64,000 nucleotides of DNA from the human T2T-CHM13v2.0 reference genome, Homo sapiens. Numbering within the stretch: the first letter of the stretch is position 1; each line of letters opens with the position of its first letter. Under the pieces are notes generated by a model, which saw only the letters and a program-made list of their open reading frames with translations, had not been told where the DNA came from and did not search any database. This document shows, in pieces, positions 62,709 through 63,760 of this stretch. Location of the stretch: the NCBI RefSeq assembly GCF_009914755.1, contig NC_060947.1. One strand, 5' to 3'. A program made the translations under genes and the position numbers.

Positions 62709-62958
62709 AGTGCTGAAAGTAAAACACTGAGAGCCAAAGATACTCTGTCCAGAAAAATTATCCTTCATAAATGAAGGGAAAATAAAGTATTTTCCATGTT
62801 TGAAATGCTTGTTCCCCAGTGCCGTCAAGTGCTGTTCCTTTACGGCACCAGGGAACAAGCATTTCAAACATGGAAAATACATTATTTTCCCTTCATATAT
62901 GAAGGATAATTTTTCTGGACAGAGTATCTTTGGCTCTCAGTGTTTTACTTTCAGCACT
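62709..62958. repeat. 117-bp inverted repeat with 16-bp spacer (113/117 identical)
   Basis: 62709-62825 is the reverse complement of 62842-62958 with 4 mismatches by manual comparison; also seen as near-identical peptides in ORFs 62673-62882(-) and 62800-63006(+). Confidence 0.97.
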
Positions 62959-63760
62959 AAGTTCAAGACCAGCCTGACCAACATGGTGAAACCCCGTCTC
63001 TACTAAAAATACAAAAATTATCTGGACATGGTGGCACGTGCCTGTAATCCCAGCTACTCAGGAGGCTGAGGCAGGAGAATCGCTTGAACCCGGGAGGTGG
63101 AGATTGCAGTGAGCCAAGATCACGCCATTGCACTCCAGCCTGGGTGGCAGAATGAGACTCTATCTGAAAAACAACAACAACAAAAAAAAAAAAAAAAAAA
63201 AGAAGAAATAGCACTTGGACATAAATTTAATTTCTTCAGCAAGGCCATTTTTACTTTCTGCAGAAAGGGTACACTCGCCAGCAGTTTTGCCACGAGAGTA
63301 CACTGAACAAAGGAGACAGGGTCATTTATAACCTGACGCATCCACCCTGCTGCTGTGTCCGGTTTCCATTGGCTGGAATGGGATCTCACATTCTGTATTT
63401 GTCCCAACTGGCTAGCAACTTAGAACTTTTTAAAAGAGGCAAAGGCAGAGGAGACCAAAGGAAGGAGGAAGTAACTTGTGGAATGCTGAGAAAGGTAAAA
63501 ACACCTCCACATAAGGAAGAGGCACAGGCTATGACCTAATGCTTGCTTGGACCAGTATAAGCATGCCAGGGCAAATATTTAGGCTAAATTGTGAGAGCTA
63601 GAACAGAAAGTATATTGATTTCTTTATTACGGCTAGCAGACATTTAAGAATGTTAGCACAGGTCTTTGAATAAGTTTTGCTTCTAAGAGAAGTTACTATT
63701 TATTCCTAATTAGATGGGGAGGAAAGCCTTCAAAGAGGAACCTCTACTTTACTTTTCACA
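62797..63760 (-). mobile_element. ERV1 solo LTR (LTR10-like), interrupted by the inverted duplication and an Alu
   Basis: TG...CA ends; 4-bp TSD TCCA (62793-62796 / 63761-63764); minus-strand start 'tgtgaaaagtaaagtagaggttcctc'. Confidence 0.8.
62959..63201 (+). mobile_element. AluS, 5'-truncated, with (CAA)n/poly-A tail
   Basis: Begins at the B-box region 'agttcaagaccagcctgacc'; complete right arm and tail. Confidence 0.93.

What the first reader, a model, noticed from the sequence alone, without database searches (positions are those of the whole stretch)
62709..63220. Alu insertion whose 5' junction is a 133-bp inverted copy of the target flank, creating a 117-bp near-perfect palindrome
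Seen: host sequence runs to ...gtgccgt (62825). Positions 62826-62958 then read as the reverse complement of [62709-62825 + aaaggaacagcacttg], followed by a 5'-truncated Alu, its A tail, and aagaaatagcacttg where the LTR resumes. The 16-nt loop is therefore the target-site duplication in inverted orientation, and the inverted block spans the L1/LTR junction. Known: L1-mediated TPRT normally leaves direct TSDs. Inference: fold-back or template switching onto flanking genomic DNA occurred during Alu integration, giving the order L1, then LTR, then Alu plus inversion. The result could extrude as a cruciform or form a long dsRNA hairpin if transcribed.
Basis: partly seen in the sequence, partly recalled or inferred. 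Interest (0 to 1): 0.8.

Follow-up and report, generated by a model that had tools for sequence, protein, structure and literature searches.

The report
Alu insertion with inverted flank copy
An old Alu insertion on the human X chromosome carries, at its head end, a back-to-front copy of the 133 bases of neighbouring DNA, a rare but already described by-product of LINE-1-driven insertion that here survives as a fossil and shows how the broken DNA ends were rejoined.

Summary
Arms 62709-62825 and 62842-62958 (117 nt, 4 mismatches) flank a 16-nt loop. It is the only strong palindrome in 159 kb examined.

Nineteen other copies of the host LTR read straight through the site, so the empty site can be reconstructed. 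The loop is the reverse complement of the 16-nt target site that recurs after the Alu A-tail. The nesting order old L1, then solo LTR (4-bp duplication), then Alu holds.

One ancestral CpG decayed differently in the two arms, so the structure is old and not an assembly error.

Both inner breakpoints fall on the two ends of the staggered LINE-1 break. One insertion event therefore most likely made both the Alu and the inversion.

The class is already in print for somatic and experimental L1 insertions: 52-220 bp upstream foldbacks in about 0.3% of events. This is a fixed germline Alu example, not a new kind.

The loop orientation is opposite to what simple snap-back priming of the 3' overhang predicts. 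The 133-nt block looks like an end-to-end copy of one discrete strand piece, possibly a whole Okazaki fragment.

No primate orthologues or genome-wide scan were available. Interest is moderate to low.

The parts
62560..62796 (+). Fragment of an old L1 (ORF1-end region by recall), left host flank
   Evidence: Matches other L1 copies at 74-82% identity up to window 62796.
62702..62709 (.). TTTTAAAA, an L1-endonuclease-like site abutting the outer edge of the left arm
   Evidence: Read. TTTTAA/TTAAAA lies within a 16-nt frame at 3.0% of random window positions. A role is inferred only.
62709..62825 (+). Left arm, the original upstream flank (L1 62709-62796 plus the first 29 nt of the LTR, 62797-62825). 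It ends at the first-nick position.
   Evidence: At both non-CpG arm mismatches it keeps the state of 10 of 10 L1 relatives.
62797..62825 (+). First 29 nt of a solo ERV-type LTR (starts TG)
   Evidence: Similarity among 19 other copies begins here.
62826..62841 (+). Loop: reverse complement of the 16-nt target site, with two transitions relative to the family state
   Evidence: Nucleotides 2-4 and 13-15 of the site are self-complementary (AAG/CTT), which leaves 8 unpaired nt.
62842..62958 (+). Right arm: inverted copy of 62709-62825
   Evidence: It carries both derived non-CpG arm changes.
62959..63166 (+). 5'-truncated Alu body (S-type by recall), lacking about the first 72 nt
63167..63202 (+). 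A-rich tail (AAC repeats, then 20 or more A, then G)
63203..63217 (+). Direct-orientation copy of the target site (15 of 16 nt; the first position reads G at 63202)
   Evidence: identical to the state in 17 of 19 other LTR copies.
63218..63760 (+). Rest of the solo LTR (ends CA). The LTR totals 588 bp without the inserts.
   Evidence: Similarity to 19 copies ends at 63750-63767, with 9 of 19 ending at 63760.
63761..63900 (+). The old L1 resumes. TCCA at 63761-63764 repeats 62793-62796, a 4-bp target-site duplication of the LTR.
   Evidence: in 10 of 10 L1 relatives the two flanks overlap by exactly 4 nt.

Best explanation
One LINE-1 ORF2p target-primed reverse transcription (TPRT) event inserted an Alu into a solo LTR and, in the same event, remodelled the upstream ('reciprocal') DNA end.

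Shown:
- The empty site read ...GTGCCGT | AAAGAAATAGCACTTG | GACAT...
- The - strand was opened at the T-rich site ...TTTCTTT/AC..., and the Alu A-tail is attached there.
- The partner end lay 16 nt downstream.
- The + strand now runs through the flank to the first-nick position. It then continues with the reverse complement of the 16-nt overhang and of 117 nt of flank, back to 62709, and then enters the Alu at about Alu position 73.

Inferred:
- A strand ending at the first nick turned round and copied, end to end, the 133-nt piece of + strand that carried the 3' overhang. Equivalently, that piece was sealed to the nicked strand's 5' end as a hairpin, which was then opened on the other strand and filled in.
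- The overhang thereby became the loop.
- The new 3' end was joined, without evident homology, to a 5'-truncated Alu cDNA.

Odds: about 0.8 for a single coupled event, and about 0.55 for the 'turn-round at the nick, overhang strand as template' form specifically.

I expect no function. It is a neutral fossil that could fold as a hairpin.
For: - Pre-insertion site: 19 of 19 other LTR copies are contiguous across the site, and 17 of 19 read the exact 16-mer.
- Breakpoints: the inverted block (62826-62958) equals the reverse complement of [62709-62825 plus that 16-mer] with 6 differences in 133. Two of its three breakpoints therefore coincide with the two ends of a 16-nt staggered break.
- TPRT hallmarks: an A-tail followed by the direct target-site copy, and a T-rich nick site.
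- Age and reality: the mismatch at 62817-18 / 62849-50 is one ancestral CpG (states among 19 copies: 4 CG, 6 TG, 6 CA, 2 TA, 1 CT). It decayed to CA in one arm and to TG in the other.
- Dating: the duplicates differ at 6 of 133 sites, about 2.3% per copy. That is below the roughly 3.5% per copy implied by about 93% pairwise identity of the older host LTR to its relatives.
[quoted passage not shown] L1 insertions with an inverted duplication on the reciprocal end that keep the TSD-like duplication (bioRxiv 10.1101/2024.12.14.628481, passages).
- Enzyme capacity: ORF2p performs DNA-templated synthesis and template jumping in vitro (PMC10830420, passages).
Against: - No orthologous empty or intermediate allele could be examined, so co-occurrence of the Alu and the inversion is inferred from breakpoints only.
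- If the Alu's own non-CpG divergence is taken as the clock (12 of 181 sites against a majority of 27 Alus; about 4% after my correction for decayed CpGs), the duplicates are too alike: 4 non-CpG differences where 10.3 are expected, P = 0.024. This needs arm-to-arm conversion, a slower rate in AT-rich DNA, or differences the Alu inherited from its source.
- There is no microhomology at the turn-round junction or at the block/Alu junction.
- The published wording of the model (self-annealed 3' end primes synthesis) predicts the loop in direct orientation. The opposite is observed.
- A 9-nt identity between the outer arm edge and Alu positions about 32-40 is unexplained, because the 34 Alu bases between that motif and the junction are absent.
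Confidence: 0.8

Rival explanations
1. Classical snap-back. After 5' resection the 3' overhang of the upstream end folded on itself (AAG/CTT inside the target site), primed synthesis back along its own strand, and was then joined to the Alu cDNA. The 8-16-nt spacer was flipped later by recombination or replication template switching between the arms.
For: - This is the model given for the L1 cases in bioRxiv 10.1101/2024.12.14.628481.
- The target site has a 3-bp self-complementary pair that could seed the fold.
- The arms are more alike than the Alu-based clock predicts, which could reflect exchange between arms.
Against: - It predicts the loop in direct orientation on the + strand, and the loop is observed inverted. 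It therefore needs a second, unobserved event.
- A 16-nt spacer is very short for arm-to-arm recombination.
- The independently decayed CpG shows the arms were not fully homogenised.
Confidence: 0.12
2. Two unrelated events: an ordinary small inverted duplication (a common polymorphic structural-variant class) and an Alu insertion that happen to abut, or a later replication template switch in an already inserted Alu.
For: - 277-311 small inverted duplications, median 284 bp, mostly with 1-15 bp microhomology, are reported in 1,019 humans (PMC12350158, passages).
- The duplicates are somewhat less diverged than the Alu-based clock predicts.
Against: - The Alu would then have no target-site duplication of its own and would sit exactly at the junction.
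- Both inner breakpoints would match a 16-nt stagger at a T-rich nick site by chance.
- A later switch would also have to remove exactly the left TSD copy and the Alu's first ~72 nt.
Confidence: 0.06
3. Assembly or sequencing artefact (a chimeric foldback read built into the assembly).
For: Foldback chimeras occur in long-read libraries (general knowledge, not tested here).
Against: - An artefact would give identical arms. Here there are 4 arm mismatches, including one CpG decayed differently in each arm, plus 2 loop changes.
- The block is embedded between a flank and an Alu that are otherwise collinear.
Confidence: 0.02

Closest known systems
[quoted passage not shown] 2023, PMC10191854)
   Same: - An inverted copy of the upstream flank lies between the flank and the 5' end of the insert.
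- The size is in range: 133 bp here, 52-220 bp reported.
- The poly-A tail and the target-site copy are retained at the 3' side.
   Different: - Here the insert is an Alu, the event is germline and fixed, and it is tens of millions of years old.
- I could not see their figure, so loop orientation cannot be compared.
L1 insertion with inverted duplication on the reciprocal DSB end (Mendez-Dorantes et al., bioRxiv 10.1101/2024.12.14.628481, Fig. 4D-E legends and text)
   Same: - The inverted duplication is on the end opposite the primed end.
- The TSD-like duplication between primary and reciprocal breakpoints is kept.
- The hairpin at the apex is small.
   Different: - Their model has a resected 3' overhang that self-anneals and primes synthesis, which predicts a direct-orientation apex. 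Here the apex is the reverse complement.
- Theirs are experimental clones and a tumour, and the inserts are L1.
Twin priming (5'-inverted L1 insertions)
   Same: An aberrant resolution of the 5' end of a TPRT event that gives an inversion next to the upstream flank.
   Different: In twin priming the retroelement's own 5' part is inverted. Here the Alu is collinear in one orientation (one + strand match over positions 1-208), and it is the host flank that is inverted and duplicated.
P-nucleotide formation / foldback inversions from hairpin-capped DNA ends (V(D)J coding ends; yeast Mre11/Sae2-deficient foldbacks, PMC10622511 seen as a listing only)
   Same: A hairpin-capped end opened away from its tip and then filled in gives a palindromic addition. 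This reproduces the observed loop orientation.
   Different: - The scale differs (133 nt against a few nt for P nucleotides).
- No evidence here for the nucleases involved.
- The end was made by a retrotransposon endonuclease.

Membership tests
L1 ORF2p-mediated (TPRT) Alu insertion | SINE body of Alu type ending in an A-rich tail | tested here: met
   - 37 matches to other Alus at 74-90% identity.
- Sub-threshold 7SL/SRP match, 39.6 bits, E = 1.3e-8.
- A-rich tail at 63167-63202.
L1 ORF2p-mediated (TPRT) Alu insertion | T-rich endonuclease-type nick site at the 3' junction | tested here: met
   - The - strand of the reconstructed empty site reads TTTCTTT/AC at the tail junction.
- The consensus 5'-TTTTT/AA-3' is taken from the abstract of PMC8565326 as listed.
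L1 ORF2p-mediated (TPRT) Alu insertion | Direct target-site duplication of about 7-20 bp on both sides | tested here: not met
   A second copy of the 16-nt site exists, but it is inverted and separated from the Alu by 117 nt. This is the anomaly itself. The length is typical.
L1-mediated insertion with upstream foldback / inverted duplication | Inverted copy of the flank immediately upstream of the target site, placed between that flank and the insert's 5' end | tested here: met
L1-mediated insertion with upstream foldback / inverted duplication | Size of the extra synthesis about 52-220 bp | tested here: met
   133 nt. The range comes from PMC10191854.
L1-mediated insertion with upstream foldback / inverted duplication | TSD-like duplication kept between the primed and the reciprocal breakpoints | tested here: met
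   The 16-nt site is present in the loop and after the tail. The feature is named in bioRxiv 10.1101/2024.12.14.628481.
L1-mediated insertion with upstream foldback / inverted duplication | Short microhomology at the inversion apex that primes snap-back synthesis (2 bp in the published cases) | tested here: inconclusive
   An AAG/CTT pair exists inside the site, but the loop orientation is opposite to the snap-back prediction.
Twin priming | The 5' part of the retroelement itself is inverted | tested here: not met
   The Alu matches other Alus in one orientation over its whole length.
Hairpin RNA gene (miRNA precursor or similar) | Match to a curated family at its gathering score | tested here: not met
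   18 matches at E <= 1 and none reaches its gathering score. The best hairpin-type hit scores 35.8 bits against a threshold of 100.

The most novel reading that the evidence does not exclude
The 133-nt inverted block may be an end-to-end copy of one whole Okazaki fragment.

Published basis: ORF2p nicks the lagging-strand template a few to some tens of bp inside the duplex from an Okazaki fragment's 3' end, so a single nick gives the staggered break (PMC10830416, sections 10 and 13 read).

Applied here:
- The + strand piece from 62709 to the end of the target site would be that nascent fragment. Its 3' 16 nt is the 'TSD' overhang and its 5' end is the third breakpoint.
- If its 3' end were sealed to, or jumped to from, the nicked template's 5' end, the next Okazaki fragment could displace and copy it before joining the Alu cDNA.
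- That would explain all three breakpoints, the loop orientation and the length without any extra nick.
- It would also explain why such foldbacks measure 52-220 bp.

Such fossils would then record Okazaki fragment ends at ancient insertion sites and give in vivo support to the fork-architecture model. Two searches found no paper combining these terms.
Probability: 0.25. Interest if true: 0.65.

Novelty: new member of a known kind. Interest (0 to 1): 0.35.

Why it matters
It shows that the rare upstream-foldback outcome of LINE-1-driven insertion, so far documented in somatic clones, tumours and cell-culture assays for L1 itself, also happened with Alu in the germline and can persist for tens of millions of years as a 117-bp near-palindrome.

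The empty site can be reconstructed from sister copies of the host LTR, so all three breakpoints are known to the base. The loop orientation discriminates between repair models, arguing against plain snap-back priming.

If the Okazaki-fragment reading holds, a genome-wide census of such fossils would test the replication-fork model of L1 target choice.

Otherwise it is a neutral curiosity in a gene-poor part of Xq.

Tried and rejected
Only 159,252 nt were scanned, and they hold no second palindrome.
- Paralogue showing a pre-insertion or intermediate state: none. The L1/LTR junction occurs only here in the genome held; the only full-length hits are the locus itself and its own inverted match.
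- Twin priming: rejected, because the Alu is collinear.
- Plain snap-back of the 3' overhang: rejected as sufficient, because it predicts the opposite loop orientation.
- Models in which the Alu cDNA or the new 3' end anneals through the 9-nt identity between the - strand at 62707-62715 and the same 9-mer in full-length Alus of the window (P = 0.0014 at random non-Alu positions), or through the 7-nt inverted match to the target site (P = 0.009). They predict that Alu positions ~41-72 are retained, and these are absent. I leave the matches unexplained.
- A third endonuclease nick at TTTTAAAA (62702-62709): the canonical cut would lie 3 nt outside the arm edge, so this is not established.
- Dating the Alu against the arms: inconclusive. 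P ranges from 0.0002 to 0.41 depending on the assumed rate.
- Rfam: no family at gathering score.
- Literature: no report of a fixed germline Alu with this structure in searches. The library lacks most subscription journals and I did not open supplements, so such a report may exist.

Full report
**What is there**

The + strand from 62709 to 62958 is a near-perfect palindrome. The repeat finder gives 121-nt arms, 96% complementary, 8 nt apart. A base-by-base comparison gives 117-nt arms (62709-62825 and 62842-62958) with four mismatches and a 16-nt centre at 62826-62841.

As single-stranded DNA it folds at -132.5 kcal/mol. Two hundred shuffles average -23.7 +/- 3.5 (z = -31.6), and none folds as well. 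It is the only inverted repeat above 80% complementarity among the five pairs that the window-wide scan lists. It is also the only palindrome with arms >=40 nt at >=90% identity in 159,252 nt of window plus fetched loci.

Directly behind the right arm lies an Alu in + orientation (62959-63166).
- It matches 37 other Alus in the DNA held, at 74-90% identity.
- It gives a sub-threshold 7SL/SRP match.
- It lacks about the first 72 nt, judged against a full-length Alu at window ~23052.

After the Alu come an A-rich tail (63167-63202) and then AAGAAATAGCACTTG (63203-63217).

**The host and the empty site**

The right flank belongs to a repeat family with at least 741 candidate copies in the genome held; 40 were scored, at 93-95% identity. 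In all 19 other copies that I fetched:
- similarity starts at a TG that corresponds to window 62797;
- the sequence runs without interruption from the stretch matching 62797-62825, through a 16-mer, into the stretch matching 63218 onward.

Seventeen of the 19 copies read that 16-mer as AAAGAAATAGCACTTG.

Similarity ends at 63750-63767, with 9 of 19 ending at 63760, on CA. The two sides of this 588-bp element are an old L1. In 10 of 10 L1 relatives the two L1 flanks overlap by exactly 4 nt (TCCA), which is a 4-bp target-site duplication.

So the host is a solo LTR of a retrovirus-like element inside an old L1, and the Alu went into the LTR. The empty site was ...GTGCCGT | AAAGAAATAGCACTTG | GACAT....

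**Anatomy against the empty site**

The reverse complement of the loop is AAAGGAACAGCACTTG. That is the 16-mer with two transitions. The 133 nt at 62826-62958 are therefore the reverse complement of [62709-62825 plus the target site], with 6 differences.

Three breakpoints follow:
- **(p)** The + strand leaves the flank exactly where the - strand reads TTTCTTT/AC. This is also where the A-tail is attached on the other side, so it is the first-nick position of TPRT.
- **(q)** The inverted block begins exactly at the downstream end of the 16-nt site, which is the other end of the staggered break.
- **(r)** The block ends at the copy of 62709 and abuts the Alu at about Alu position 73.

Two of the three breakpoints fall on the landmarks of a 16-nt stagger, which is a typical target-site length. 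This is the main reason to treat the Alu and the inversion as one event.

An independent inverted duplication, a class that is common in human populations (PMC12350158, passages), would have to hit both landmarks by chance. It would also leave the Alu with no duplication of its own.

**Age and reality**

Of the four arm mismatches, two (62817-18 against 62849-50) are a single site. Among the 19 other LTR copies this site reads CG in 4, TG in 6, CA in 6, and other dinucleotides in 3. It reads CA in the left arm and TG in the right arm read in reverse complement. An intact CpG was therefore duplicated and then decayed independently in each arm.

The other two arm mismatches lie in the L1 part. 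All 10 of 10 L1 relatives agree with the left arm. Both loop changes are likewise derived relative to 17 of 19 LTR copies.

So the four non-CpG differences are all derived in the inverted block. The originals carry none, or one if G63202 is counted as the first base of the right-hand copy. Four of four on one copy is not significant (two-sided P = 0.125). It is chance, or a hint of error-prone synthesis.

These differences exclude a foldback-read artefact.

Dating is loose.
- The duplicates differ at 6 of 133 sites, about 2.3% per copy.
- The older host LTR is about 93% identical to its relatives, which implies about 3.5% per copy. That fits the order LTR, then Alu plus block.
- Against the Alu's own divergence the duplicates look too similar. 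The Alu shows 19 substitutions in 201 aligned sites against the majority of 27 Alus, 12 of them at 181 sites that the majority does not show as CpG. By my recollection of Alu CpG positions, about 7-8 of these are truly non-CpG.
- The resulting probabilities are P = 0.024 at a 4% rate, 0.12 at 3% and 0.41 at 2%.

I regard this as unresolved. Arm-to-arm conversion, a slower rate in AT-rich DNA (the arm is 37% G+C), or differences the Alu inherited from its source would each explain it.

**Mechanism**

What the sequence fixes is this: the strand that contains the upstream flank turns round at the first nick and continues on the complement of the strand piece that carried the 16-nt 3' overhang, starting from that overhang's very end.

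Plain snap-back priming of the overhang is the wording of the published model (bioRxiv 10.1101/2024.12.14.628481). It would give ...GTGCCGT-AAAG...CTTG-ACGGCAC... on the + strand. The observed centre is the reverse complement, so snap-back alone is not enough.

Three variants reproduce the observed orientation without a later flip:
- **(a) Hairpin closure and off-tip opening.** The overhang is held by its internal AAG/CTT pair and sealed to the recessed 5' end, making a closed hairpin. The hairpin is then opened on the other strand 117 nt from the tip and filled in, like a giant P-nucleotide tract.
- **(b) Run-off and template jump.** A polymerase extending a + strand 3' end upstream runs off the nicked template at p. 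It jumps to the 3' end of the displaced 133-nt piece and copies it to its 5' end. ORF2p shows DNA-templated synthesis and template jumping in vitro (PMC10830420).
- **(c) The same in a replication fork.** See the boldest reading below.

In every variant the new 3' end is then joined to a 5'-truncated Alu cDNA with no visible homology.

I commit to a single coupled event (0.8) and, within it, to the turn-round / overhang-as-template form (about 0.55). Snap-back with a later spacer flip gets 0.12, independent events 0.06 and artefact 0.02.

**Unexplained details at the outer edge**

- The arm ends next to TTTTAAAA (62702-62709). Such a site lies within a 16-nt frame at 3.0% of window positions.
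- The 7-mer at 62708-62714 is the reverse complement of 7 nt inside the target site (P = 0.009 at random positions).
- The - strand at 62707-62715 is identical to a 9-mer found in the 5' part of full-length Alus of the window, for example at 23083. The probability of such a match at random non-Alu positions is 0.0014.

These are post hoc observations. Every model I tried that uses this pairing predicts that the Alu bases between the motif and the junction would be kept. About 34 of them are missing.

**Comparison with what is known**

The class is in print.
- Nam et al. [quoted passage not shown] They give n = 3 (0.3%), plus one that also has an internal inversion, among somatic L1 insertions. 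They attribute it to extra DNA synthesis of about 52-220 bp.
- Mendez-Dorantes et al. (bioRxiv 10.1101/2024.12.14.628481, passages and figure legends) show one experimental clone and one tumour with an inverted duplication on the reciprocal end and a retained TSD-like duplication.

The present case meets the structural criteria, and its 133 nt is within the reported range. It differs in three ways: the insert is an Alu, the event is germline and fixed, and it is old.

It is not twin priming, because the Alu itself is not inverted. It is not a known RNA family either.

My searches found no report of a fixed germline Alu example. The library lacks most subscription journals, and I opened no supplements.

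**Boldest reading**

Thawani et al. (PMC10830416, sections 10 and 13 read) show that ORF2p prefers a duplex with a long 5' single-stranded overhang. [quoted passage not shown] ORF2p nicks the long strand a short way inside the duplex, so one nick gives a staggered break and the target-site duplication.

On that picture, the + strand piece from 62709 to the end of the target site would be a whole nascent Okazaki fragment.
- Its 3' 16 nt is the overhang.
- Its 5' end is breakpoint r.
- The upstream 3' end that displaces and copies it is simply the next Okazaki fragment.

This removes the need for a second and a third nick. It also fits the 52-220 bp range of published cases. It is inference only (probability about 0.25). 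No paper in the library combines these terms.

**Verdict**

The structure is a new member of a known kind. Interest is 0.35, mainly because the base-exact breakpoints and the loop orientation bear on how the 5' end of a TPRT event is resolved.

Noticed in passing
window 62797-63760: Solo retrovirus-type LTR. It measures 588 bp once the Alu and the inverted block are removed, starts TG and ends CA, and has a 4-bp target-site duplication TCCA. It is inserted in the ORF1-end region of an old L1. Its family has at least 741 candidate copies in the genome, and the 40 scored are 93-95% identical to this one. I could not name the family without a repeat library.
   Followed up: partly
window 62826-62958 versus 62709-62825 and 63203-63217: All four non-CpG differences between the duplicated copies are derived in the inverted block (two in the arm, two in the unpaired 8 nt of the loop). 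The originals carry none. Two-sided P = 0.125, so this is chance or a trace of error-prone synthesis.
   Followed up: partly
window 62707-62715, 63210-63216 and Alus at 16296, 23083, 27745 (+), 4186 (-): A three-way short identity. The - strand at the arm's outer edge, the 3' part of the target site and the 5' part of Alu share 7-9 nt (P = 0.0014 and 0.009 at random positions). Yet the Alu bases between that motif and the junction are absent. Unexplained.
   Followed up: partly
window 24294-24693: Two overlapping inverted-repeat pairs (71-79 nt, 71-76% complementary) next to the Alu at 24289-24595. They look like an inverted Alu-Alu neighbourhood.
   Followed up: no
window 8861-9014: A 45-nt inverted repeat, 76% complementary, 64 nt apart, in AT-rich DNA.
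   Followed up: no
window 63167-63202: The Alu tail is structured as (AAC) repeats, then a run of 20 or more A, then a G before the target-site copy. The G at 63202 is either a tail variant or a change in the first base of the duplication.
   Followed up: no
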